Below the pieces are notes generated by a model, which was not told where the DNA came from, ran no database searches, and saw only the letters and a program-made list of their open reading frames with translations. Positions 1 to 51,443 of a stretch of 64,000 nucleotides of DNA are shown here, piece by piece. The stretch's first letter is position 1. Each line of letters starts with the position of its first letter. The translations under genes were made by a program, and so were the position numbers. The DNA comes from an uncultured Pseudomonadota bacterium (GTDB lineage Bacteria > Pseudomonadota > Alphaproteobacteria > Rs-D84). The stretch is taken from assembly GCA_902802115.1 (NCBI GenBank), contig CADCKW010000001.1:72409-136408 (forward strand), in the 5' to 3' direction.

Positions 1-1290
1 AATCTTGCCATTTTCCAAAACATTCGGCAACAGTTGCATCGAAAAACCTGTCTGCAAATCCGCCTGATCAACGGTACTGGATTCGACAGTTGTAAAGTTG
101 CGCGATTCGAAACGTTTAATATATCCGGTTGATGTCATGTTGCTGACCGGGGCAACACGATTATTACGCGTTGTCACACCAACATTTGTCACCAAAGATA
201 CCTTGCCCTGCTTTGCCAAAGCCTCAATCAATCCAGCACTGCCCGCGCCACGCGCCAACGAACCGTTCATAATTTGGTCATTGGTATATGCACCAGATAC
301 AACACTGCCATTTTCCATGTGTGTTGCACCGGTTGTCGCCGACAAAGTATTTGACAAAACCGCAATGTTCATCGAACTGGCACCAACCGCCGCCAAATTA
401 TTCTTTGGATTTGCAACAATATTCAACCCAGATGTCGAATTAATCGCCGCCGCCAGATTCAAACCAAATGCCGAATCGTTAGAAATCGAAACTTGCAACA
501 CTTTGACATCGATTGTCACCAATTGTGACAAACGTTTGTTTTGACGTTCGACATATTCACTGATACGCGACAACACAGACGGTGGCGCGGTCGCAGTGAT
601 GGTTCCCAAACTGCGCGATACTGTAAATCCAGAATTTTCTGTTTTACCAACAATCGCCGTCAAGGCCTTTTCAACCTCGTCCCACTCTTTCATTGTTGTT
701 TCCAAAACGACCTGGCCAGAATTATCCGATTGCACAGCCGTTTGATATGAAATATCTGTTCCCAATGCATATAATGTAAATGTGCGCGTTTCTGTTTCAT
801 AAAACACGATTGCGTTTTTATCATAATACCACAGTAAATCTAAATCTGTTGCGACCTGGGACAACAAACCCGACAATTTGCCAGTATATGCGACATTTAT
901 TGTCTTCTTTAATTTTTCACTGTTGATTTGTTTATCGATTTTAACCGGGATTCCCGTCACAGAATTGATATTATTTGCCAAAACCTGTAATGTCACAGGT
1001 TCGTCCAACAAAATTGTTATACCCGTATCGGTTTCAAATTGCGCCGGCAAGTTATTACGATGTTCCAAAGAAATTGATTTATTACCCAACCAAACACCTT
1101 CGGACATAGAAACCGTATCGCCACTGGCAACCTTGGCGCGTGGATTTTTTGCCATTTCAAATGCATCATACGCATTAACAAAATCTTGATCCACCGTCGC
1201 AGACACCTTGGCAGACTGTTCACGCGCACACGCGGCCAGCATCAGTCCCAAACATGCGAATACAAAAACTTTTTTTAACAATGCTCTCAT
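1..1290 (-). CDS. Lipoprotein secretin, PilN/TcpC-like (type IVb pilus outer-membrane secretin). The 3' part runs off the window start.
   Basis: The reverse-strand ATG at 1288-1290 gives MRALLKKVFVFACLGLMLAACAREQ, with an LAAC lipobox. I translated the frame open down to position 1. The C-terminal stretch (…KQGKVSLVTNVGVTTRNNRVAPV…FTTVESSTVDQADLQTGFSMQLLPNVLENGKI) has the pattern of a secretin domain. The listed + ORF 98..544 is its antisense shadow. Confidence 0.6.
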   Translation of the reverse strand, partial: MRALLKKVFVFACLGLMLAACAREQSAKVSATVDQDFVNAYDAFEMAKNPRAKVASGDTVSMSEGVWLGNKSISLEHRNNLPAQFETDTGITILLDEPVTLQVLANNINSVTGIPVKIDKQINSEKLKKTINVAYTGKLSGLLSQVATDLDLLWYYDKNAIVFYETETRTFTLYALGTDISYQTAVQSDNSGQVVLETTMKEWDEVEKALTAIVGKTENSGFTVSRSLGTITATAPPSVLSRISEYVERQNKRLSQLVTIDVKVLQVSISNDSAFGLNLAAAINSTSGLNIVANPKNNLAAVGASSMNIAVLSNTLSATTGATHMENGSVVSGAYTNDQIMNGSLARGAGSAGLIEALAKQGKVSLVTNVGVTTRNNRVAPVSNMTSTGYIKRFESRNFTTVESSTVDQADLQTGFSMQLLPNVLENGKI

Positions 1291-1334
1291 ATTTATACTC
1301 CCATAAAAACCAAGTGTGGCGAACACAGATTCAA

Positions 1335-2195
1335 CTATTCTTCATTTGTGGAAATTACCAAAACCAAATTACCCTTGTAAAATTTGGCGTATGGCACCGG
1401 TGTTGCGCGACCAAAATTACGCACCAGCGCAGATGCAACATCCATAAAACGTCCCTTGAATACCGCAGATGCCTCTATTGGATATTCGCGCGATGTACTC
1501 CACACCAAATCCCAGCCTTCTTTATCGCACCAATCTTGTAAAACCTCACGCAGTGTCTGGCCACTGGCAACCACCCAAGAACGCACCGCATCAGGTTGTG
1601 ATTTTGGTGCCTCGGCATCACTTTGCACGCCAATCTCGGTAATTTCGGCCTCGCTATCCATTTCATTAAATACCGCGTCCATTGCCTTGTTACGTTTTGT
1701 GCAATTTTTACGACCGCTACGCGAAACCGCCAAAACATTACCGCCGTCATCTTCCATTACATCACGACGCAATAATGGCATTTCTGCCCCATTTTCACAT
1801 TCATCATCAAATCCCATTGGGATATTATTTCCATGCAACATATTTGCACCACCGGTCCAACCAGTTCCATTAAAATCGAAACTGTTATCAACAACCATAT
1901 CATCACCAATTTTGGAAACAATACGAATATTATCACTGTTTTTTGCCCCTGGTGCATCATCGCAATTTACCGTCACATCGGCATCAGAACCCGCCAAAGG
2001 CCACGCAGGAACATTTTCATATGAATTCGCGACCGGCGCCACATTATCACGTTCGGTCTGTCGTGCAGAATTATCAGCAGCACGATATTCGTTTGTAAAA
2101 ACCTCAGACGTGGTGACCTGGGGTAAATATTCATCGGCAAAACAATAGCCCGCCGCAGTTGCAAACATTGCAAAAATCAAAAACTTACGAAACAT
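1335..2195 (-). CDS. PilL/TcpQ-like type IVb pilus biogenesis protein (secreted)
   Basis: 286-aa ORF with an N-terminal signal peptide (MFRKFLIFAMFATAAGYCFA|DEY). The C-terminus (WVVASGQTLREVLQDWCDKEGWDLVW…YPIEASAVFKGRFMDVASALVRNF…YKGNLVLVI) matches the TcpQ/PilL C-terminal domain pattern. It lies immediately upstream of the secretin gene, as in R64/ICE pilL-pilN. An AAGGA RBS sits 7 nt before the ATG. Confidence 0.55.
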   Translation of the reverse strand: MFRKFLIFAMFATAAGYCFADEYLPQVTTSEVFTNEYRAADNSARQTERDNVAPVANSYENVPAWPLAGSDADVTVNCDDAPGAKNSDNIRIVSKIGDDMVVDNSFDFNGTGWTGGANMLHGNNIPMGFDDECENGAEMPLLRRDVMEDDGGNVLAVSRSGRKNCTKRNKAMDAVFNEMDSEAEITEIGVQSDAEAPKSQPDAVRSWVVASGQTLREVLQDWCDKEGWDLVWSTSREYPIEASAVFKGRFMDVASALVRNFGRATPVPYAKFYKGNLVLVISTNEE

Positions 2196-2360
2196 TTAAA
2201 GGTCCTTTCTTTCAATCTAGATATTGTCATTATAACAACTTCACCGAATCTGTGCAAGACCAAAAAAGCCTAAAATTATGTTTTTATTCTATATATTATA
2301 TAAAAACACACGAATCGAAAAAAGTATGTTATACTTATGTTGTAATTTCAGGAGTTTGAT

Positions 2361-2903
2361 ATGCAAAATACAATAATTTTAACTTTATCCACATTAACAT
2401 TTATCGGGGTTATCGCGACATTTATAATAATGATGAAATTGAGTAATAAAATCAGTGATATTACCAACACTTTGACATATCAATATAATATGATTATGAA
2501 AATTCAATCAACATTGAAAAATAAAAACGCAACAAATGCGGTGGCTGAAAATGCCGAAATTATTTATTCAGATTTATTACAAAACTTAATTCCAATTATG
2601 GCGGCATTGGACACAATGCCACGCAACACAACCGAACACCCATTGTGGCGCGCACTGGGTGGCATTATGGACGAATACGCAAAAAATCCATTTGCATTGG
2701 AAAAATTGCGTCGTTGTATTAAACTGGACAGTAATATCGCCCACAATGTAAATAACTATATCGCACGCGCAAATAAATTATTGCAGTATTTAACAACCAC
2801 AGAACCCGATGGTATTTTATCATCAACATTTACAGACGGCCTGTTGGGACAATCATTAACATTTTTCGGTCAGGCCCAACAACTTGCAGAAAGCGGTGAT
2901 TAA
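2361..2903 (+). CDS. Hypothetical membrane-anchored protein
   Basis: 180-aa ORF. An AGGAG RBS (caggagtttgatATG) precedes it. It has an N-terminal TM helix. Its stop is adjacent to the sufB start. Confidence 0.5.
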   Translation: MQNTIILTLSTLTFIGVIATFIIMMKLSNKISDITNTLTYQYNMIMKIQSTLKNKNATNAVAENAEIIYSDLLQNLIPIMAALDTMPRNTTEHPLWRALGGIMDEYAKNPFALEKLRRCIKLDSNIAHNVNNYIARANKLLQYLTTTEPDGILSSTFTDGLLGQSLTFFGQAQQLAESGD

Positions 2904-6965: not shown

Positions 6966-7340
6966 ATGGCAAAAAAGTCAAATGTACATTTAAAAACAGT
7001 TGAACACATCTATGGATTGTCTGGTGCGCAACCATGTGGCCATTTATCTGCTGATGAAATTAATGATTTAATTGAACAAATCAAAAATGCAAAAATTCCA
7101 TTTGAATCTTGCATAATATCAATGTCTGTCGATTTGTCACAATATTTCTGCAATATGAAAATATTCAAACTGGCATCCAAATCAGAACATTTAACAATCA
7201 ACCTTAACACATGCAAAAAATGTGGGATACATAAACAAATACATTGTCCAAAACAAATTGCATCAGGTAAATGCCAAGAAGAAATTGTAATAGATTTAAT
7301 TGGCAAAAAATTATTCGCTGATAAATATCAAGGAAAATAA
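6966..7340 (+). CDS. Cys-rich paralog A (domain X), unknown function
   Basis: 124 aa with an AAGGA RBS. The C-terminus CKKCGIHKQIHCPKQIASGKCQEEIVIDLIGKKLFADKYQGK is shared with gene B. Confidence 0.6.
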   Translation: MAKKSNVHLKTVEHIYGLSGAQPCGHLSADEINDLIEQIKNAKIPFESCIISMSVDLSQYFCNMKIFKLASKSEHLTINLNTCKKCGIHKQIHCPKQIASGKCQEEIVIDLIGKKLFADKYQGK

Positions 7341-7344
7341 GGTT

Positions 7345-7758
7345 ATGGCAACGAAAAAAGACAATGTTTTTTTAAAAATCAAAGATAGTAAAAATGGACC
7401 ACATTTTTACTCATGTGGTTACATGTCTACTGACACCATCAAAAAATTATATTCGGAACTCCGTTGCACACTTTCTTTACATGATGTAAAACAATTAAAC
7501 GGACATTGCGCACACATAGAATCTGCACAGATTACAACAACATCAATAGAGATAAAAACTTTCAAAGGCAATCGATCCAGGGTTTCTTACAAATTAGAAA
7601 TTGTTTTAAACAACCCTTGTCCACATGTTCCTTGTTGTGATGTTTTACATCCAAAATGGGATTGTTTAAATTGCATTGCAAAAGGGAAATGCCAAGATGA
7701 GATGATAATAAAGTTACTAGGTAAAAAATTATTTGCTGAAAAATATCAAGGAAAATAA
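7345..7758 (+). CDS. Cys-rich paralog B (domain X), unknown function
   Basis: 137 aa from the ATG at 7345; the ORF track gives a longer alternative start at 7300. The RBS aagga comes from the KYQGK codons of gene A. The C-terminus is CPHVPCCDVLHPKWDCLNCIAKGKCQDEMIIKLLGKKLFAEKYQGK. Confidence 0.6.
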   Translation: MATKKDNVFLKIKDSKNGPHFYSCGYMSTDTIKKLYSELRCTLSLHDVKQLNGHCAHIESAQITTTSIEIKTFKGNRSRVSYKLEIVLNNPCPHVPCCDVLHPKWDCLNCIAKGKCQDEMIIKLLGKKLFAEKYQGK

Positions 7759-7760
7759 AA

Positions 7761-8045
7761 ATGCAACACAGAATTACACAACAAGTAAAAATTTGTCCAT
7801 TGGATTCATTCTTGAATGTTCGTGAACACAATGGTCCCGATACCCCATACCAATTGGAAGTATATCATTCAGATAAAAGTCCAACCAAAAATATTGGTGC
7901 GATATCACATTATTCTGGAAAATATTCATATGCCATTGGAACACCTGTTGATGTAAAACCGCATGTCACAGTAAATATGGGCTGCTGGCTGACCAATGTA
8001 ATTATGAATGAATGTTTAAAAAATTACATCCGCGGACAATACTAA
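7761..8045 (+). CDS. Paralog C (domain Y), unknown function
   Basis: 94 aa. It is homologous to the C-terminal half of D (PLD…Y.E.Y..DKSP…SY.IG..V.V). Its RBS is supplied by gene B's terminal codons. Confidence 0.55.
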   Translation: MQHRITQQVKICPLDSFLNVREHNGPDTPYQLEVYHSDKSPTKNIGAISHYSGKYSYAIGTPVDVKPHVTVNMGCWLTNVIMNECLKNYIRGQY

Positions 8046-8067
8046 GAAAAAAATAGGAATCAAAAAA

Positions 8068-8742
8068 ATGCCAAAAGAAAACAATAATGTTTTTTTACAA
8101 ACAAAAGATTTATCCAAGACATACGAACACGAATGTGGCACATGGTCTTTGGAACAAATGCGATCTTTTCAAGATTCTTTAGCTGGTAAAGAAATCCCCA
8201 GAACATCTTGTTTGTTTGGTATAAACACCACATTAAATCGCACAGGTCATACCGCACGAGTTTACAAAATGCCAAGCGGTTTTAATCTGGAACCAATTAC
8301 AGAAAAATTAACTATACATGTAAATCCAGATATCGTAAATTGCCCATGTCACGTAAATGGTCCCCAAGAATGTTTGAAATGTATTGCATCGGGCAAATGT
8401 CCTGATAAATTCGTTCAAGATACATTTGCCTGTGAACTGTTTCCTCATTTATATGTCCAAGAACAAACTATAACAAAAATAGACAACTATATCCAGCCCC
8501 TGGACGGACTACGCAATTTTTGTTCTGATTCCAAAGAGGCCGTATACCAATATGAATATTATCTCACAGATAAAAGTCCAAACGAACACGTTATAGCATT
8601 AACACAATATACAGGACATCATTCGTACAAAATCGGTGACCATGTAATGGTTCAAAAGCTTATACCAATATCTTTCGGATTATACGATAAAAACCGTATA
8701 TTGACTGATGTCGTAAAAAAACGTTTTGGCATAGATAGATAA
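8068..8742 (+). CDS. Paralog D (fused domains X+Y), unknown function
   Basis: 224 aa. The N-terminus resembles A and B (NVFLQTKD…, CPCHVNGPQECLKCIASGKCPDK). The C-terminus resembles C. An AGGAA RBS precedes it. Confidence 0.6.
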   Translation: MPKENNNVFLQTKDLSKTYEHECGTWSLEQMRSFQDSLAGKEIPRTSCLFGINTTLNRTGHTARVYKMPSGFNLEPITEKLTIHVNPDIVNCPCHVNGPQECLKCIASGKCPDKFVQDTFACELFPHLYVQEQTITKIDNYIQPLDGLRNFCSDSKEAVYQYEYYLTDKSPNEHVIALTQYTGHHSYKIGDHVMVQKLIPISFGLYDKNRILTDVVKKRFGIDR

Positions 8743-19480: not shown

Positions 19481-20986
19481 TTACATTCCGCAATCCAGAC
19501 ATTCTTCCCCTATTTCCTGGATTTCTGCGTCACCATCGGTCACAACAGCGATTGGGACAACCTTGCCTGGTTCGGTGTAATGCGTTTCTTTGACAACGCG
19601 CACACGACGATTTTGGGCATTTGGCACACCATCAGCCGTTGGAACTTTCAAATCTTCTTCACCTGCGGAAACCGCGACAATTTGACTTGCAGGGATTCCG
19701 TATTGAATCAGCATTTTCTGGACAGCCTCGGCTCTGCGACCACCCAATGCATAATTATAACTGTTGCTGCCAGATGTATCCGTATGACCAACCACAGAAA
19801 CCTTTATATTTTTATTTGTCTGGGTTGCGGTCGCCAATTCACGAATCAACGCATCATATTCAGGTTTGATAATGGCTTTGTTAAAGTCAAAATGAACTTC
19901 GAATATCTCTTCCATTACATGTTGTGTTGGTTCCAATGGAATCTGTTGGACTTTAATAACAGCCTTTTCATCGTTTGGTTTCAATGCGTCCAAACGGTCA
20001 TTGATGGCCTTGATTTCTGCACGCATAGCCATCATCATATTGATAAACTCGTCACGGGTGACAACTTCTTCGCCTAATGTTGGATCTTGGTTACATGGGC
20101 ATGTTTCCACCGCCGGTTCATTATCTGGAACATTTATTACAACAGGACGACCTGTATTGCAGTCACATTTTGACCCATTACTTGAATTCACCGCGACAGT
20201 ATTACCACTGTTGGAAACATGTTTATCGCCACCATAGATATTTTGGTTAAACACCATCGGCGCACCATTACCCACAGGCACAGTTTGCACCAAATTTGCC
20301 GGAACATTAACATTATTTACAATCACGATACCGTCACGTGGATACGATGCCCCACCCACAGTTTTCAAAGAACGTGTATCTGGATAAAATTCTTTCTTAT
20401 TAATTTCGATTGTTGCAGGTTTTTCCGCCGCGCGTTTTGCAACCTTGCAACCACCACTTTTACAATTACGCAACACGTCCATTGCCGCGATAAAACGGTC
20501 ATGACATTGATGCGCAGTTTCCTCCTGGGCGGTTGATTCCGCAGACAACCAACAATCAAATTTCGCCTGTGCCTCGGCTGCAACATCTGGACGATTTTCT
20601 GTGGCATCATTTTTGAATTCTTCAATCATGTCATTATATGCCATTTGCAACATTTCAGCAGTTGCCTCGTCATCGATTGGCCAATTTCCCACAGTTTCCG
20701 GGAACGGTGTTTCCCCTGAAAAAGCCGTCACAGCCTTTTGCGCAAACAATTCACCCATTTCCGGATAACCCGATGTCCGCGCATTATAAATTGCATAAGA
20801 CCGATAATTCATCGCCAACTGATTCAAAAAAGAATCCTGATGTGGTGCCGAATAAACATCTAAACCTTCGACATAATCAACTGTTGGGGTTGATACATCT
20901 TCATAACGATTATCGGTTCCTGCGCATGCCGTCAAAGCCGACACCAAAGCCAAACCAAAAACACGTGAAAATATTTTGTTTGCCAT
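19481..20986 (-). CDS. OmpA-family lipoprotein (peptidoglycan-associated)
   Basis: 501 aa with a lipobox (LTAC). The C-terminal OmpA-like domain is …VVGHTDTSGSNSYNYALGGRRAEAV…NRRVRVV. There are Cys-rich segments in the middle. Confidence 0.75.
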   Translation of the reverse strand: MANKIFSRVFGLALVSALTACAGTDNRYEDVSTPTVDYVEGLDVYSAPHQDSFLNQLAMNYRSYAIYNARTSGYPEMGELFAQKAVTAFSGETPFPETVGNWPIDDEATAEMLQMAYNDMIEEFKNDATENRPDVAAEAQAKFDCWLSAESTAQEETAHQCHDRFIAAMDVLRNCKSGGCKVAKRAAEKPATIEINKKEFYPDTRSLKTVGGASYPRDGIVIVNNVNVPANLVQTVPVGNGAPMVFNQNIYGGDKHVSNSGNTVAVNSSNGSKCDCNTGRPVVINVPDNEPAVETCPCNQDPTLGEEVVTRDEFINMMMAMRAEIKAINDRLDALKPNDEKAVIKVQQIPLEPTQHVMEEIFEVHFDFNKAIIKPEYDALIRELATATQTNKNIKVSVVGHTDTSGSNSYNYALGGRRAEAVQKMLIQYGIPASQIVAVSAGEEDLKVPTADGVPNAQNRRVRVVKETHYTEPGKVVPIAVVTDGDAEIQEIGEECLDCGM

Positions 20987-21082: not shown

Positions 21083-21330
21083 TACAAAACGTACATAAAC
21101 GAGCCACCAACAGTTCGTTCATCGGGTGATTTTTAGATAAATAATGGTGCAGATGCGCAGTTGATGGCGAGTGCCGTGTACAAAACGTACATAAACGAGC
21201 CATCAACAGTTCGTTCAACGAAAGATTTTTAGATAAATAATGGTGCAGATGCGAAGATAAAAACGAGCGTAATGTACAAGTGCTACATGAGCGAGTTTTT
21301 ATCAAGCAGATGTGCCATTATTTATCTAAA
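21083..21330. repeat. Array of structured hairpin repeats (family R, 1 truncated + 2 full units)
   Basis: The units are ggtgcagatgcgcag-STEM-gagtg.cgtgtacaa.gctacataaacgag-STEM'-…. The stem sequences differ between units but stay complementary (ttgatggc/gccatcaa; gataaaaac/gtttttatc). The outer arm tttttagataaataatgg/ccattatttatctaaaaa overlaps the stop of gene 21318..22142. Confidence 0.7.
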
Positions 21331-45408: not shown

Positions 45409-47373
45409 TTAATTACGTTTATCAAGTCTATACGCAATGAAACCGCCAAAAATTGCAATTAGAACAATTATAACAAACCACGCATCACGCCCCAACAACC
45501 TATACAAAGTCATATGGGAACCAGTTGCCACACCGTCCAACACACCAATTTGTCCAATGGGTAATTGCGATATAATTTTACCGTCCGCACCAACAAACGC
45601 ACTAATTCCAGAATAATTAGCCCTGATAACCGGAACACCCGATTCGATTGCCGCCCTGCGCACCATATCCAGATGTTGATATGTCCCCGGCGTTTTTCCA
45701 AACCAAGTATCATTTGTTATATTCACAATCGCATCAACATAATCATTTTTTACAACCGCATTTGAAAATATAATTTCATAGCAAACCGCCGGCGCAAAAA
45801 CAAAACTGGTGTTTTTATCAATACGTAAATCCATCAAACGCGCACCTTGCCCAGCCGTCAAATTTGCAGGTGTTGGAATAAATTTAATTGGACCATATTC
45901 ACCAAACGGCACCAAATGAGATTTACTGTAATAATCTAAAATATCACCATTTTCATTTGCCAAAACCAATGAATTATATACTGACGAATCATAATCAACA
46001 ACATGCGCACCAATTATCACAGGAACATTTAATTGTTTTGCAATCGGCATAAAATCATTTGGACGCAATGCAAACGGATACGATGTTTCTGGATAAATAA
46101 CAACATCAATATTGCGAACATCACCCGCCAATTTTATCAATGCATCAACACGATTTTTTGCCTGATTCAATGCGTCCGCACGCGTCATAGAAATTTTAGA
46201 TTCTTGACTGGTCACTGGTTGAACGACACGAATTCGCGTTGCACTATTACCCATATTTGATATTCCAATATTATTATATCCTGCAAACAACCCAACAACC
46301 AAAACCAGCATAAAAAACACAAACAAAAACCAATTCGCTTTGCCACCACGATTATATAATAATTGCACAGACGATGCAATCAAACCAAATATCACAAATC
46401 CTAATCCCAATGCACCAAACAACGACATAGAATTCGAAATAATTGCGCCACCCAAAGTAATATTTGCAATTGGATTCCATGGAAACCCAGTCAAAAACCA
46501 TTCACGCAACCACAACACCGCAGTTGCCGACAAAGCAAAAACCATTGGTTTTACACTATTTTCATTGTATATACATCGTGTCAATACAAATGGAATTGTG
46601 AATATAATTGCGCCAACCAATGCCAATCCAATCAATGCCGGCCCGGTCCAAATTGCAAATTGTTTTGTTAATTCCGGAACAACATATATGGAATTTAACG
46701 ACCACCAAAACATAGAAATTGAATACATGGCACCAAACGGAATCGCACGCAGCCAAACCCGCCACCAAGAAACTTTGTCATCACCCATACACAGCAACCA
46801 ATATGCCGCCCCAAATGCCAAAATTGTTATCCACCATAAATTAAAAGGCGCAAAACCCAACGATGCCAAACCACCCAGCACCCCAACCAACACATATTTC
46901 CACCATTTAAACCCAGAAACATTTTCATCAGCATACGGATTTTTAAACCCTAACTTTTTCAAAACTTTAATTTCTTTGGCCTCCATAACACGCGCCTGGG
47001 CATCAGTCAAATGATCATAACCCAACAAATGAAACATACCATGCACAACCATATGCGCCGTATGTTCAGCCACAGAAATATTCGCCGCCGCCGCTTCACG
47101 TTTTACAGTATCCAACGATATATAAATATCCCCCAACAAAATATCGTCACCCAATTCAAAAGACAAAACATTTGTTGGTTTATCCATATTACGATACATT
47201 TTATTCATCGCATGAATTTCATTATCATCAGTCAAAGTAATAGAAACCTCGGCATCACGATATTTTGCGCCAACAACCGCATTTGCAATTTTTTCAAAAT
47301 CTATATTATATTTTTTCCAACGTGAATCATTGTAATTAACATAAACTTTCATTTTTATCGCCTCTATACGCAT
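45409..47373 (-). CDS. ybeY-lnt: Fusion protein: endoribonuclease YbeY (N-terminus) + apolipoprotein N-acyltransferase Lnt (C-terminus)
   Basis: 654-aa single ORF. Residues about 1-150 carry the YbeY metal motif HGMFHLLGYDH and the C-terminal …LKKLGFKNPY. Polytopic Lnt follows directly (FAPFNLWWI…), with a CN-hydrolase domain (VVIYPE…, catalytic Cys in APAVCYEIIF). No stop separates them. Confidence 0.75.
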   Translation of the reverse strand: MRIEAIKMKVYVNYNDSRWKKYNIDFEKIANAVVGAKYRDAEVSITLTDDNEIHAMNKMYRNMDKPTNVLSFELGDDILLGDIYISLDTVKREAAAANISVAEHTAHMVVHGMFHLLGYDHLTDAQARVMEAKEIKVLKKLGFKNPYADENVSGFKWWKYVLVGVLGGLASLGFAPFNLWWITILAFGAAYWLLCMGDDKVSWWRVWLRAIPFGAMYSISMFWWSLNSIYVVPELTKQFAIWTGPALIGLALVGAIIFTIPFVLTRCIYNENSVKPMVFALSATAVLWLREWFLTGFPWNPIANITLGGAIISNSMSLFGALGLGFVIFGLIASSVQLLYNRGGKANWFLFVFFMLVLVVGLFAGYNNIGISNMGNSATRIRVVQPVTSQESKISMTRADALNQAKNRVDALIKLAGDVRNIDVVIYPETSYPFALRPNDFMPIAKQLNVPVIIGAHVVDYDSSVYNSLVLANENGDILDYYSKSHLVPFGEYGPIKFIPTPANLTAGQGARLMDLRIDKNTSFVFAPAVCYEIIFSNAVVKNDYVDAIVNITNDTWFGKTPGTYQHLDMVRRAAIESGVPVIRANYSGISAFVGADGKIISQLPIGQIGVLDGVATGSHMTLYRLLGRDAWFVIIVLIAIFGGFIAYRLDKRN

Positions 47374-49872: not shown

Positions 49873-51048
49873 TTAGAATTGGAACATAACTTGCAACCCA
49901 ACCGACCATTCGCGGAATTTAGACAAATCAACATACGCATAATGTGCCGGGTCATTAAACTGTGCCGCCGTTGCAGGCAAAGTTCCATCATGCACGACCA
50001 AAGTCTTGTCATCTGCGCTGTCATACAAAGATGTTTTTGCATACAGATTCAATGCAAACCAATCATTTGGCTGCCAACCGAATGCACCTTTGATAGAAAA
50101 CTGGTCATGCCAATCATAGAAACCATATAAACCTTCAACATTTAAAGTCCAATCTTCTGCCAATACGGTCCAAACACCCATACCTAATTCGCCCATAAAA
50201 ACAGTATCTGTTGAATCGCCATAAACCAACATACCCCATTCGTTCGTGGTCAGGTTTTCCATATAATCACCATAAACATCACCGTCCATATTCACCAACC
50301 AACCGCGTGCCAAACCATAGATTGTTGATGTTGCGACTTTATACCCTGCCTTTAAATCAGCAATAAAATAATCAACACCATGTTTTTGATGTTCATAATA
50401 CCCAGATATCGTTGCAATCCAATCGTCTGTATCAACAATACGCCCCTGCAAACCCAAACCATACAGATTCAAACCATTTGATTTATATTCATCTGTACCT
50501 GCACCGGCGGTATCTGTCCATATTAATTTATCACGATTGTATTTACCCATTGCCTGCAAAGCGATACGGTCAGTCAAACCAAAACTCAAATCTTCCTTTA
50601 AAGACAATTCTTTTAATTTTCTGGCGACTTCGCCTGTGGCATTACCAAAATTATATTTACCCTCTAAATATTCACCGGTGGTCACCGAACCAAATTGAAA
50701 TTGCAAAGGCTGATAAAAAGGATTTGCAATAAAATATTTCCGCTTTGCAGATTTACGATATGTTTCACCACGAACATATGTTTGTTTATTTTCACGTGGT
50801 TTTACCTGACTATAATGACGTGGTTCATAATTTGTATTGATATTATCATACATACCCGCACGCGACGCACGTGGCGCATAATCATTAGAATAAGATTCAT
50901 ACGCACTACGATTTATACGGATAGTATCCCCATCAGAATTTGTCATATTGATACTGGAATACATAGAACTGCGGCCCGCCGCATTAACATCTGCACCAAA
51001 CGCAACACAGCCCAAAACTGCGAAAATCCCAAAAAATTTGATATTCAT
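49873..51048 (-). CDS. Outer-membrane beta-barrel protein (hypothetical)
   Basis: 391 aa with a signal peptide (…AFGADVNA). It ends …LQVMFQF and has aromatic-rich beta strands. Confidence 0.6.
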   Translation of the reverse strand: MNIKFFGIFAVLGCVAFGADVNAAGRSSMYSSINMTNSDGDTIRINRSAYESYSNDYAPRASRAGMYDNINTNYEPRHYSQVKPRENKQTYVRGETYRKSAKRKYFIANPFYQPLQFQFGSVTTGEYLEGKYNFGNATGEVARKLKELSLKEDLSFGLTDRIALQAMGKYNRDKLIWTDTAGAGTDEYKSNGLNLYGLGLQGRIVDTDDWIATISGYYEHQKHGVDYFIADLKAGYKVATSTIYGLARGWLVNMDGDVYGDYMENLTTNEWGMLVYGDSTDTVFMGELGMGVWTVLAEDWTLNVEGLYGFYDWHDQFSIKGAFGWQPNDWFALNLYAKTSLYDSADDKTLVVHDGTLPATAAQFNDPAHYAYVDLSKFREWSVGLQVMFQF

Positions 51049-51151
51049 TTAAATTCTCCTTTCCCGTCAATTATATCACATTTTACCCCAATAAAAAAGC
51101 CATAATTACATTTGAATTAAAAAGTAAAAAATAAAATATAAATATGTAAAT

Positions 51152-51443
51152 AGAACGAGGTAGATACGCAGTTATTTGCAAGTGCAGTGTACAAGCGCTA
51201 CATAAACGAGCAAATAACAAGCAAACATGCCGCCAACCCAACAGATATTAGAACGGTGTAGATGCGCAGTTGTTTGTGAGTGAAGTGTACAAATGCTACA
51301 TGAACGAACAAACAACAAGCAGATATGCCACAACAAATAAAAACAGATTTTATAACGGTGTAGATGCGACGATTCCGGCGAACGTAGTGTACAAGAGCTA
51401 CATGAGTGAGCCGGAATCAAGCAGATATGCCGTTATAAAATCT
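51152..51443. repeat. Array of three structured hairpin repeats (family R)
   Basis: Three tandem units of about 90 bp. Each has the conserved boxes gtagatgcgcag / gagtg.agtgtacaa.gctacatgaacga / caagcagatatgcc. The stems between them vary and compensate: ttatttgc/gcaaataa, ttgtttgt/acaaacaa, gattccggc/gccggaatc. In unit 3 the outer arm is ttttataacgg/ccgttataaaa. The ftsK stop codon lies in the last arm. Confidence 0.75.

What the first reader, a model, noticed from the sequence alone, without database searches (positions are those of the whole stretch)
1..2195. Type IVb (R64/ICE-like) pilus module: PilL/TcpQ-like gene followed by a lipoprotein secretin
Seen in the sequence:
- The minus-strand ORF 1335..2195 is a secreted protein. 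Its C-terminus (W..SGQTLREVLQDWC.KEGWDLVW…F.G.F.D…L) matches the TcpQ/PilL domain pattern.
- The next gene, 1..1290, starts MRALLKKVFVFACLGLMLAACA with a lipobox. It stays open to the window edge and has a secretin-like C-terminal region.
Established knowledge: pilL immediately precedes the lipoprotein secretin pilN in the R64 thin-pilus operon and in ICE/PAPI-1-type pil clusters. TcpQ likewise precedes the lipoprotein secretin TcpC.
Inference: the window begins at the end of a type IVb pilus cluster. This could be conjugative or ICE-derived, or adhesion-related, and the remaining genes (pilO-pilV) would lie beyond position 1. That is unexpected in an otherwise streamlined housekeeping region.
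Basis: partly seen in the sequence, partly recalled or inferred. Interest (0 to 1): 0.6.

Follow-up and report, generated by a model that had tools for sequence, protein, structure and literature searches.

The report
Scattered type IVb pilus outer-membrane module
The window starts inside a real type IVb pilus outer-membrane pore gene and its ring-forming partner, but these are not the end of a mobile pilus cluster: they are a two-gene unit fixed in the core chromosome of tiny-genome gut bacteria (Candidatus Enterousia), and sister genomes carry the other pilus genes at separate loci.

Summary
Window 1335-2195(-) encodes a secreted 286-aa protein with a C-terminal TcpQ domain (Pfam 62 bits, cutoff 27). 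Window 1-1290(-) holds the first 430 of 542 codons of a lipoprotein secretin whose best family match is R64 PilN (type IVb).

Both proteins match the two chains of the solved EPEC BfpB-BfpG secretin complex.

The inference is only partly right. Extending the contig shows no pilO-V beyond position 1. The secretin ends at a strong terminator. A LamG-lectin protein follows, then rpsT, plsY, dprA, dnaA and gyrB.

The pair sits in the same housekeeping synteny in 80 species of Ca. Enterousia/Rs-D84, which have genomes under 1 Mb. The secretin is as conserved as GatA/GatB (about 82% identity). There is no integrase, att site or compositional anomaly, so it is not an ICE.

The lineage does have the rest of an R64-type machine, but scattered. 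A pilO-pilP-ATPase-platform operon lies next to lpxC, and a probable prepilin gene lies next to uvrC. These were seen in sister genomes, not in the window's own genome.

Verdict: an ordinary machine type in an unusual, dispersed, core-genome setting. It has not been described for this lineage. Moderate interest.

The parts
1335..2195 (-). Gene for the 286-aa secreted TcpQ/BfpG/PilL-like secretin partner (complete, stop codon included).
   Evidence: ORF. Pfam TcpQ 62.4 bits. BfpG of PDB 9u5s, E 4.7e-16. Found directly upstream of the secretin in 81 of 82 loci, 25-73 nt away.
2136..2195 (-). Signal peptide of the TcpQ-like protein (aa 1-20, MFRKFLIFAMFATAAGYCFA). It is invariant across homologues. 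It has no canonical lipobox (Tyr at -1).
   Evidence: Alignment A3. The reading as a Sec signal peptide is an inference from the sequence.
1701..2012 (-). Conserved middle domain of the TcpQ-like protein (aa 62-165) with three invariant cysteines. It has no Pfam or NCBIfam family and is restricted to this lineage. It is possibly Ig/HYR-like.
   Evidence: Alignment A3. Only 38 representative clusters among 1.84 billion proteins. 9 of 9 tested carriers also end in a TcpQ domain. Weak repeat matches occur in a giant HYR/PKD surface protein.
1593..1700 (-). Variable acidic linker (aa 166-201), with large insertions in other species.
   Evidence: Alignment A3.
1350..1583 (-). TcpQ (N0-like) domain, aa 205-282, nearly invariant. 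Predicted to bind the secretin.
   Evidence: The role of this domain in BfpG is taken from PMC12531336.
1291..1334 (-). 44-nt spacer between the two genes, with a GGGAG Shine-Dalgarno 8 nt before the secretin ATG. It holds no terminator, so co-transcription is inferred.
   Evidence: Sequence. No terminator-like site in the spacer.
1..1290 (-). First 430 of 542 codons of the PilN-family lipoprotein secretin. The last 112 codons lie beyond position 1.
1228..1290 (-). Signal peptide and lipobox (L-A-A-C) of the secretin. Cys21 is invariant.
1003..1227 (-). LG-like region (aa 22-96): a helix (VDQDFVNAYDAFEMAK) and the predicted partner-binding strands (DTVSMSEGVWLGNKS). It is almost invariant in the lineage.
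   Evidence: Colinear profile alignment to BfpB residues 14-96 (this stretch alone has E 0.12). Invariant columns. The function of this region in BfpB is from PMC12531336.
787..1002 (-). N0-like domain (about aa 97-168).
   Evidence: Weak matches to T3S secretin N0 and SctC N-termini. Aligned to BfpB 145-190.
505..699 (-). N3-like (Secretin_N-like) domain (about aa 198-262).
   Evidence: Secretin_N weak hit and TIGR02520 best stretch. Aligned to BfpB 230-300.
1..222 (-). Start of the C-terminal secretin pore domain (aa 357-430 of 357-523).
   Evidence: Pfam Secretin on the full-length protein. BfpB alignment 350-523.
2229..2256 (-). Promoter-like site (TTGCAC, 17 nt, TGT-TATAAT extended -10) in the 165-nt divergent intergenic region upstream of the TcpQ-like gene.
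   Evidence: Consensus scan (10 of 12 matches with TG) and sequence. This is a pattern match only.

Best explanation
The two genes form a self-contained transcription unit: promoter, TcpQ-like gene, lipoprotein secretin gene, terminator. It encodes the outer-membrane module of an R64/PilN-type type IVb pilus machine.

This machine is a vertically inherited core feature of the reduced-genome gut and rumen Alphaproteobacteria Ca. Enterousia (order Rs-D84).

Proposed mechanism, by homology with the solved BfpB-BfpG complex:
1. The secretin is lipidated at Cys21 and reaches the outer membrane without a pilotin.
2. It multimerises into a gated pore.
3. The N0-like TcpQ domain of the partner binds the strands just after the secretin's N-terminal helix. 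This forms a 1:1 hoop around the N3 ring that stabilises the multimer.

The inner-membrane and periplasmic parts are encoded elsewhere on the chromosome. PilO, PilP, the assembly ATPase and the platform protein form an operon beside lpxK-lpxC. A probable prepilin gene lies beside uvrC. Together they would push a pilus through this pore.

The most likely use in an organism that lacks most biosynthesis is attachment to a partner cell or host surface.

Shown here: gene identities, operon anatomy, conservation, synteny, and the existence of the other parts in the lineage.
Inferred: complex formation, the presence of the other parts in this particular genome, pilus production, and the adhesion role.
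For: Identity of the pair:
- TcpQ domain above cutoff.
- Secretin domain above cutoff, with R64 PilN as best family by a wide margin over MshL and SctC.
- Both proteins match the two chains of PDB 9u5s.
- The secretin profile is colinear with BfpB over residues 33-523, E 3.5e-44. The functionally tested BfpB motif I46-Y47-I48-G49 corresponds to invariant V-W-L-G (PMC12531336).
- End-to-end tblastn matches to plasmid PilN genes, 95% coverage at about 25% identity.

Operon anatomy:
- Promoter-like site, two Shine-Dalgarno sequences and a 14-bp-stem terminator right after the secretin stop.

Core-genome status and constraint:
- 311 matches in species-representative genomes.
- Same gene order GatBAC-RuvX-AI2E-SufCB-u180 / TcpQ-secretin in 80 loci.
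- Median secretin identity 81.8%, against GatA 80.5, SufB 74.9 and DnaA 63.2.
- Third-position divergence about 45% against second-position about 9%.

Rest of the machine in the lineage:
- A PilO-like ORF 9 kb downstream of the secretin in Ca. Enterousia sp. L029.
- 36 metagenome loci with lipoprotein-PilO-PilP-ATPase-platform.
- Family scores: PAP_PilO 48.3 bits (cutoff 26.7), PilP TIGR03021 46.2 (cutoff 34.65), T2SSE 206.7, T2SSF 88.8.
- The ATPase is 35% identical to a plasmid PilQ (E 1e-92).
- A prepilin-like gene (MNQESG|RSMIEMLGVLAIMGV) lies beside uvrC in 7 of 7 species where that region is visible.
- The window's own genome has the same gyrB-dnaJ-pgsA-uvrC order leading to that spot.
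Against: - None of pilO, pilP, the ATPase, the platform or the prepilin was seen in the window's own genome. About 200 kb of it and of a sister contig set were sampled without a hit.
- The pilOPQR loci could not be tied to the window's clade.
- The secretin scores below the PilN equivalog cutoff.
- The prepilin call is weak: N_methyl 18.4 bits against a cutoff of 21.2, with an unusual Arg at +1.
- No prepilin peptidase, PilV, PilM or retraction ATPase was found in any sequence held.
- The structure model of the secretin failed (pLDDT 31), so the architecture rests on sequence alignment alone.
- A published survey of Rs-D84 genomes mentions type IV pili only for another lineage (PMC12306168).
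- There is no expression or imaging data.
Confidence: 0.75

Rival explanations
1. The pair is the promoter-proximal end of one contiguous type IVb pilus cluster that continues beyond position 1 (pilO to pilV). It belongs to a conjugative plasmid-derived island or ICE inserted in a housekeeping region.
For: - In plasmids the same two genes are followed directly by pilO2, pilP, ATPase, platform, pilin and pilV.
- 2474 of 2911 plasmid records with a PilN match are conjugative.
- VirD4 and VirB4 homologues exist elsewhere in these genomes.
Against: - The contig extension shows a terminator, a LamG protein, then rpsT-plsY-dprA-dnaA-gyrB.
- In many species the secretin is followed by rpsT within 82-500 nt.
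- Synteny is identical in 80 species.
- There is no integrase or att. The nearest tRNA is the conserved tRNA-Phe between gatB and gatA.
- GC of the pair (43-45%) equals that of GatA, PlsY and DprA.
Confidence: 0.03
2. An orphan secretin. In the window's clade the inner-membrane pilus parts have been lost, and the highly conserved pore with its partner works without a pilus. It could serve as a gated outer-membrane conduit for exporting folded surface proteins such as the LamG-lectin paralogues, or for taking up macromolecules or metabolites. This organism lacks standard transporters.
For: - No pilus assembly gene was found in about 200 kb sampled from the window's genome and a sister contig.
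- A secreted LamG protein is encoded directly downstream in this genome.
- Published genome analysis notes missing transporters and a partner-dependent lifestyle (PMC12306168).
- The secretin is more conserved than most housekeeping proteins.
Against: - Only about a fifth of the genome was sampled.
- Congeners at the same divergence carry pilOPQR and the prepilin.
- The LamG gene is absent from that slot in most species and is separated from the secretin by a terminator.
- To my knowledge, no secretin is known to work without an inner-membrane energising platform.
Confidence: 0.12
3. The pore serves DNA uptake (a competence pilus) or cooperates with the type IV secretion system of these genomes, rather than serving adhesion.
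For: - dprA lies three genes downstream of the secretin in 48 loci.
- VirB4 lies 5-8 kb upstream of pilO in 10 loci, and VirD4 is present.
- From my own knowledge, R64 and PAPI-1 type IVb pili support conjugation.
Against: - dprA is separated from the secretin by a terminator, rpsT on the opposite strand and plsY, so nothing links them beyond proximity near dnaA.
- No ComEC or ComEA was seen.
- Type IV secretion systems have their own outer-membrane core and do not use secretins (my own knowledge).
- The function of any type IVb pilus cannot be read from these genes.
Confidence: 0.1

Closest known systems
R64 (IncI1) thin-pilus PilL/PilN and the PilN-type clusters of conjugative plasmids and PAPI-1-like ICEs. 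The example fetched here is Methylovorus plasmid pMsip01 (L091).
   Same: - The TcpQ-family gene lies directly upstream of a lipoprotein PilN-family secretin of the same length (559 against 542 aa), alignable end to end.
- The lineage also has PilO (PF06864), PilP (TIGR03021), a PilQ-like ATPase (35% identity) and a PilR-like platform (31%), in the same order O-P-Q-R.
   Different: - Only about 25-29% identity, and below the PilN equivalog cutoff.
- The genes are chromosomal, part of the core genome and vertically inherited, not on a mobile element.
- The cluster is split into at least three loci interleaved with housekeeping genes.
- The partner protein carries an extra cysteine-containing domain.
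- No pilV/shufflon, pilM, pilT or prepilin peptidase was seen.
- The probable prepilin has a short 6-residue leader, not the longer leader of type IVb pilins.
EPEC bundle-forming pilus BfpB-BfpG secretin complex (PDB 9u5s; PMC12531336) and its Vibrio cholerae homologue TcpC-TcpQ.
   Same: - Both proteins match the two chains by sequence (E 3.5e-44 and 4.7e-16).
- The gene order is the same, partner first and then the lipoprotein secretin.
- The domain order appears the same: lipid anchor, helix, partner-binding strands, N0, N3, pore, with no S domain.
- The partner-binding motif is conserved in character (I-Y-I-G against V-W-L-G).
   Different: - The accessory set in the lineage is R64-like (PilO, PilP), not Bfp- or Tcp-like.
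- The partner is 286 aa with an added middle domain and acidic linker, against about 130-150 aa for BfpG and TcpQ.
- The stoichiometry and pore size are unknown here.
Scattered chromosomal secretion-machine genes in reduced alphaproteobacterial genomes, such as the Rickettsiales vir homologue T4SS (comparison from my own knowledge).
   Same: The components of one envelope machine are dispersed among housekeeping genes in a small, host- or partner-dependent genome, yet remain strongly conserved.
   Different: That is a type IV secretion system. Here the dispersed machine is a type IVb pilus. The two are unrelated apart from VirB11/GspE-type ATPase ancestry.

Membership tests
R64/PilN-type type IVb pilus system | Outer-membrane lipoprotein secretin of the PilN family (TIGR02520). 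| tested here: met
   TIGR02520 is by far the best family (E 2.5e-71, 240.8 bits, four colinear stretches over the whole model). Pfam Secretin is above cutoff. The lipobox Cys is invariant. Caveat: the score is below the equivalog cutoff of 287.65, so this is a divergent member.
R64/PilN-type type IVb pilus system | TcpQ/PilL-type partner encoded next to the secretin. | tested here: met
   PF10671 62.4 bits against cutoff 27. BfpG match. Adjacent in 81 of 82 loci. No hit to the ICE-type conj_PilL model in NCBIfam.
R64/PilN-type type IVb pilus system | PilO (PF06864) and PilP (TIGR03021) accessory proteins. | tested here: inconclusive
   Both are above cutoff in lineage members (L093). PilO is present in Ca. 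Enterousia sp. L029, 9 kb from its secretin. Neither was seen in the window's own genome in the roughly 200 kb available.
R64/PilN-type type IVb pilus system | GspE-family assembly ATPase and GspF-family platform protein. | tested here: inconclusive
   T2SSE 206.7 bits and T2SSF 88.8 bits, directly after pilO-pilP, in 32 and 24 of 36 lineage loci. Not found in the window, L001, L083-L090 or L128-L130.
R64/PilN-type type IVb pilus system | Type IV prepilin with a class III signal peptide. | tested here: inconclusive
   A 153-154-aa ORF, MNQESG|RSMIEMLGVLAIMGV, with Glu at +5. N_methyl scores 18.4 bits against a cutoff of 21.2. tblastn to plasmid PilS and PilV N-termini gives E 0.01-0.07. It lies beside uvrC in 7 species. 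The equivalent spot in the window's genome lies just beyond the retrievable sequence.
R64/PilN-type type IVb pilus system | Prepilin peptidase (PilU, A24 family). | not tested
   None was noticed among the precomputed Pfam annotations of the sampled loci. No complete genome could be scanned.
R64/PilN-type type IVb pilus system | All genes in one contiguous operon, typically on a conjugative plasmid or ICE. | tested here: not met
   A terminator follows the secretin and housekeeping genes come next. pilOPQR and the prepilin lie at separate loci.
Integrative conjugative element / genomic island | Integrase plus att or tRNA boundary, patchy distribution, deviant composition. | tested here: not met
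   No integrase lies within 10 kb on either side. The only nearby tRNA is the conserved tRNA-Phe in the gatB-gatA spacer. The pair is present with the same synteny in all 80 loci. Its GC is within the range of its neighbours.
BfpB-BfpG / TcpC-TcpQ secretin complex | Secretin with an N-terminal lipidated LG region carrying partner-binding strands, then N0, N3 and pore, with no S domain. The partner has an N0-like fold and binds 1:1. | tested here: inconclusive
   The sequence-level alignment is colinear and the key motif is conserved and invariant. The LG stretch alone is weak (E 0.12). The AlphaFold model was unusable (pLDDT 31). Complex formation and stoichiometry cannot be tested with these tools.
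Type II secretion (GspD), Tad (RcpA), type IVa (PilQ) or MSHA (MshL) secretins | Non-lipoprotein secretin with N0-N1-N2-N3 or AMIN domains, a C-terminal S domain and a separate pilotin, in a gsp, tad or pilMNOPQ context. | tested here: not met
   There is no GspD, RcpA or PilQ family hit. MshL scores only 92 bits against 241 for PilN. The protein is itself a lipoprotein. Its neighbours are Suf genes and rpsT.

The most novel reading that the evidence does not exclude
An entire order of obligately partner-dependent gut Alphaproteobacteria with sub-megabase genomes has domesticated a plasmid/ICE-type (R64-like) type IVb pilus. It has fixed the pilus in the core chromosome around the replication origin and broken it into separate loci. 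The pilus, with a partner protein that gained a lineage-specific Ig-like domain, serves as the main organ for latching onto a partner cell. It possibly works together with the co-resident VirB4/VirD4 secretion system to obtain metabolites or DNA. This would explain why its pore is as conserved as the translation machinery.
Probability: 0.3. Interest if true: 0.72.

Novelty: new member of a known kind. Interest (0 to 1): 0.45.

Why it matters
Ca. Enterousia and the Rs-D84 order are prevalent in ruminant, horse, chicken and human guts. Their genomes are under 1 Mb and lack most biosynthesis and standard transporters. They are thought to live off a partner, but no attachment or exchange apparatus has been described for them. 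The one comparative paper I found reports type IV pili only for a different lineage (PMC12306168).

A complete-looking R64-type type IVb pilus gene set, with an outer-membrane pore as conserved as GatA/GatB, gives a concrete and testable candidate for how these cells hold on to a partner or to the mucosa.

It is also a clear example of a machine usually carried by mobile elements that has become a dispersed core-genome feature. Cluster-based annotation pipelines will miss it for exactly that reason.

For the scan itself the lesson is practical. The domain calls were right, but the expectation of a cluster next door was wrong.

Tried and rejected
1. A motif scan for GspE/TadA Walker A, Flp and prepilin signatures over the window and 82 loci (1.5 Mb) gave only false positives in GatB. 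My first prepilin pattern was too strict and missed the real candidate. A tblastn with plasmid PilS/PilV later found it.

2. I sampled the genome blindly, using LamG-family paralogues as anchors for contig look-ups. This covered about 130 kb of new sequence and found no pilus gene. It did turn up VirD4. One look-up (P0019) found nothing on record.

3. The AlphaFold2 model of the secretin, from an alignment of homologues more than 80% identical, was unusable (pLDDT 31, pTM 0.21). I ran no fold search on it.

4. I tried to place the pilOPQR loci on the window's genome through shared flanking genes. Only paralogue matches appeared.

5. The last two look-ups extended the window's genome. One stops inside uvrC, about 1.1 kb short of where the prepilin is expected. 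The far end shows only housekeeping genes.

6. The 716-aa gene beyond position 1 was considered as a pilO-V substitute or secretin substrate. I rejected it as a machine part. It is a LamG/ConA-like lectin protein, absent from that slot in most species, and it lies behind a terminator.

7. The ICE/HGT hypothesis was rejected.

8. The earlier Enterousia genome paper (Begmatov 2023) is not held in the library.
Full report
**1. The observation**

The 286-aa product of window 1335-2195(-) has a signal peptide and a C-terminal TcpQ domain (PF10671, aa 205-282, E 4.2e-17, 62.4 bits, cutoff 27).

The ORF at 1-1290(-) begins MRALLKKVFVFACLGLMLAAC and runs off the window. An identical contig (L001, ENA STEW19-1 scaffold_222) gives the whole 542-aa protein. 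It passes Pfam Secretin (50.2 bits, cutoff 27.5). Its best curated family is TIGR02520, the R64 PilN type IVB secretin (E 2.5e-71, 240.8 bits). MshL scores 92 bits and SctC 30 bits. The PilN score is below the equivalog cutoff of 287.65.

Against solved structures, the secretin matches BfpB and the partner matches BfpG. These are the two chains of the 17:17 EPEC complex 9u5s (PMC12531336).

**2. What lies beyond position 1**

The contig extension shows the following order:
- the last 112 codons of the secretin
- a 14-bp-stem intrinsic terminator 17 nt after the stop
- a 716-aa gene
- rpsT(-), plsY, dprA, dnaA
- two unknown secreted proteins
- gyrB(-), dnaJ, pgsA(-), uvrC(-)

There is no pilO-V, relaxase or integrase. 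The only nearby tRNA is tRNA-Phe between gatB and gatA.

The 716-aa protein has no Pfam or NCBIfam match. It belongs to a multi-paralogue family confined to this lineage. Its model has three confident beta-sandwich domains (pLDDT 72.5). These match LamG/concanavalin-A-like lectin domains of neurexin, laminin, sialidases and phage tail fibres. It is a probable surface glycan-binding protein, not a pilus assembly part.

**3. Whose genome, and how fixed the pair is**

The secretin has over 120 listed homologue clusters at 81-100% identity. All come from uncultured gut or rumen Alphaproteobacteria.

A scan of species-representative genomes found 311 matches. The 80 retrieved are named Ca. Enterousia, 'uncultured Rickettsiales UMGS', RUG and so on. 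These are the Rs-D84 order, with genomes under 1 Mb and a proposed partner-dependent lifestyle (PMC12306168).

In all loci the order is GatB-GatA-GatC-RuvX-AI2E-SufC-SufB-u180 on one strand, then TcpQ-like and secretin on the other (81 of 82 loci).

Downstream, 48 loci show rpsT-plsY-dprA-dnaA after a gap of 82 to 4457 nt. The LamG gene therefore occupies a variable slot.

Among the 70 more distant species, median identity to the window's proteins is:

| Protein | Median identity (%) |
|---|---|
| Secretin | 81.8 |
| GatB | 81.1 |
| GatA | 80.5 |
| RpsT | 79.3 |
| SufB | 74.9 |
| SufC | 70.0 |
| DnaA | 63.2 |
| TcpQ-like | 61.6 |

Third codon positions differ at about 45% of sites, second positions at about 9%. 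GC of the pair (43-45%) matches GatA, PlsY and DprA.

This is a core, vertically inherited, strongly constrained unit, not an island.

**4. Anatomy of the pair**

A promoter-like site (TTGCAC, 17 nt, TGT-TATAAT) lies in the 165-nt divergent spacer. Both genes have Shine-Dalgarno sequences, and a 44-nt spacer separates them without a terminator.

Secretin:
- Cys21 of the lipobox is invariant.
- Residues 26-72 (a helix plus two short strands) are almost invariant.
- They align with the BfpB 'LG' region. The tested BfpG-binding motif DMVSKTDSIYIGNSSF corresponds to DTVSMSEGVWLGNKSV.
- The rest aligns colinearly with BfpB N0, N3 and the pore. There is no extra C-terminal S domain.

Partner protein:
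- an invariant signal peptide and the motif LPQVTTSEVF
- a conserved ~100-aa domain with three invariant cysteines
- a variable acidic linker
- a near-invariant TcpQ domain

The middle domain occurs in only 38 representative clusters of 1.84 billion proteins. In 9 of 9 tested carriers it comes with a C-terminal TcpQ domain. It weakly resembles repeats in a giant HYR/PKD surface protein.

**5. Is there a pilus?**

Nothing pilus-like is in the 64-kb window, which holds only housekeeping genes.

Blind sampling of about 130 kb elsewhere found no pilus gene. It did find a VirD4-type coupling protein.

The turning point was fetching a canonical plasmid cluster, pMsip01. Its order is TcpQ-family, PilN, PilO2, PilP, ATPase, platform, pilin, PilT-like, PilM, PilV. 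I used its proteins as queries, which revealed two things:
- A PilO-like ORF in Ca. Enterousia sp. L029, 9 kb downstream of its secretin, after dnaA, lpxK and lpxC.
- A 153-154-aa ORF with a prepilin-type N-terminus (MNQESG|RSMIEMLGVLAIMGV), divergent from uvrC. It lies 2.7-11 kb from the secretin in 7 of 7 species where that region is visible.

I then used the PilO fragment for the one metagenome scan, which returned 36 loci on contigs up to 935 kb. They share the conserved operon lpxK-lpxC-lipoprotein-PilO-PilP-ATPase-platform. Family scores:

| Protein | Model | Bits | Cutoff |
|---|---|---|---|
| PilO | PAP_PilO | 48.3 | 26.7 |
| PilP | TIGR03021 | 46.2 | 34.65 |
| ATPase | T2SSE | 206.7 | 24.9 |
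| Platform | T2SSF | 88.8 | 25.2 |

The ATPase is 35% identical to plasmid PilQ, and the platform 31% to PilR. VirB4 lies 5-8 kb upstream in 10 loci.

PilO and PilP are the R64-type accessory proteins.

Limits:
- None of these genes was seen in the window's own genome.
- Its gyrB-dnaJ-pgsA-uvrC order matches the species that have the prepilin just after uvrC, but the retrievable sequence ends inside uvrC.
- No prepilin peptidase, PilV, PilM or retraction ATPase was seen anywhere.
- The prepilin call is below the Pfam cutoff (18.4 against 21.2 bits).

**6. Mechanism and rivals**

Best explanation (0.75). The pair is the outer-membrane module of a dispersed chromosomal R64-type type IVb pilus. 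It consists of a self-targeting lipoprotein secretin hooped by its TcpQ-like partner, as in BfpB-BfpG. An adhesion role is inferred from the lifestyle.

Rivals:
- A contiguous ICE-borne cluster (0.03, refuted).
- An orphan pore working without a pilus in this clade (0.12).
- A DNA-uptake or T4SS-linked role (0.10).

**7. Comparison and novelty**

The machine is of a known kind, and NCBI's pipeline already names some of the partner proteins as 'TcpQ family'.

What is unusual:
- Core-genome fixation in an entire reduced-genome order.
- Dispersal into at least three loci near the replication origin.
- Conservation of the pore at the level of GatA/GatB.
- The extra domain in the partner.

I found no paper describing a pilus in this lineage.

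I rate it a new member of a known kind, with interest 0.45.

Noticed in passing
L001:12854-15004 (just beyond window position 1); paralogues in L083-L090: A lineage-restricted, multi-copy family of 420-930-aa secreted proteins. Each has two LamG/ConA-like lectin domains flanking a third beta-sandwich domain and an invariant helical/Cys motif (…KQTRP..CPAGKKCLLVED…). Up to six copies occur on one 250-kb contig. In 5 of 8 places examined they sit next to a ribosomal-protein gene (rpsT, rpsL, rpsO, rpsD, rpsA). The slot after the secretin is empty in many species.
   Followed up: partly
L084:5066-7339 (-) and L093:2324-4738 (+): Type IV secretion system components among housekeeping genes of these sub-megabase genomes. 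There is a VirD4/TraG-type coupling protein (757 aa), followed by a 419-aa unknown and an LpoB-domain lipoprotein. There is also a VirB4 ATPase (804 aa, TIGR00929 369 bits) 5-8 kb upstream of pilO in 10 loci. The rest of the system was not sought.
   Followed up: partly
window 6966-8742 (+), between gatC and gatA: Four small paralogous ORFs (124, 152, 94 and 224 aa) are inserted inside the gatCAB operon. Three of them (124, 152 and 224 aa) carry a related Cys-rich motif (C..C.A.GKC…), and in the 124- and 152-aa ORFs it lies at the C-terminus and ends in …GKKLFA[DE]KYQGK. They have no Pfam annotation. Their number and presence vary between species (6-13 of 82 loci have a match).
   Followed up: no
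window 2361-2903 (+): A conserved 180-aa protein with one N-terminal transmembrane helix and no family match. It is transcribed divergently from the TcpQ-like gene and ends 2 nt before sufB. It is present in 81 of 82 loci (median 67% identity). Whether it belongs with Suf or with the pilus module is unknown.
   Followed up: no
window 21083-21279 and 51151-51405: Related tandem intergenic repeats (96-102-nt unit, 2.1-2.2 copies, about 80% alike between the two sites). Each lies just upstream of a minus-strand gene: an OmpA-family lipoprotein gene (19481-20986) and a gene for a secreted 391-aa protein that looks like an outer-membrane protein by eye (49873-51048; no family search was run on it). 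There is no Rfam family. They could be a regulatory leader or a promoter array.
   Followed up: partly
L093:9454-9870 (+), and L029:18834-19208: A conserved 124-138-aa lipoprotein is encoded directly upstream of pilO in 33 loci. It has no family match and may be an unrecognised pilus accessory protein (a PilM analogue?).
   Followed up: no
window 45409-47373 (-): A 654-aa ORF that appears to fuse a YbeY-like endoribonuclease N-terminus (…HGMFHLLGYDH…) to an apolipoprotein N-acyltransferase (Lnt)-like body. This was judged by eye only.
   Followed up: no
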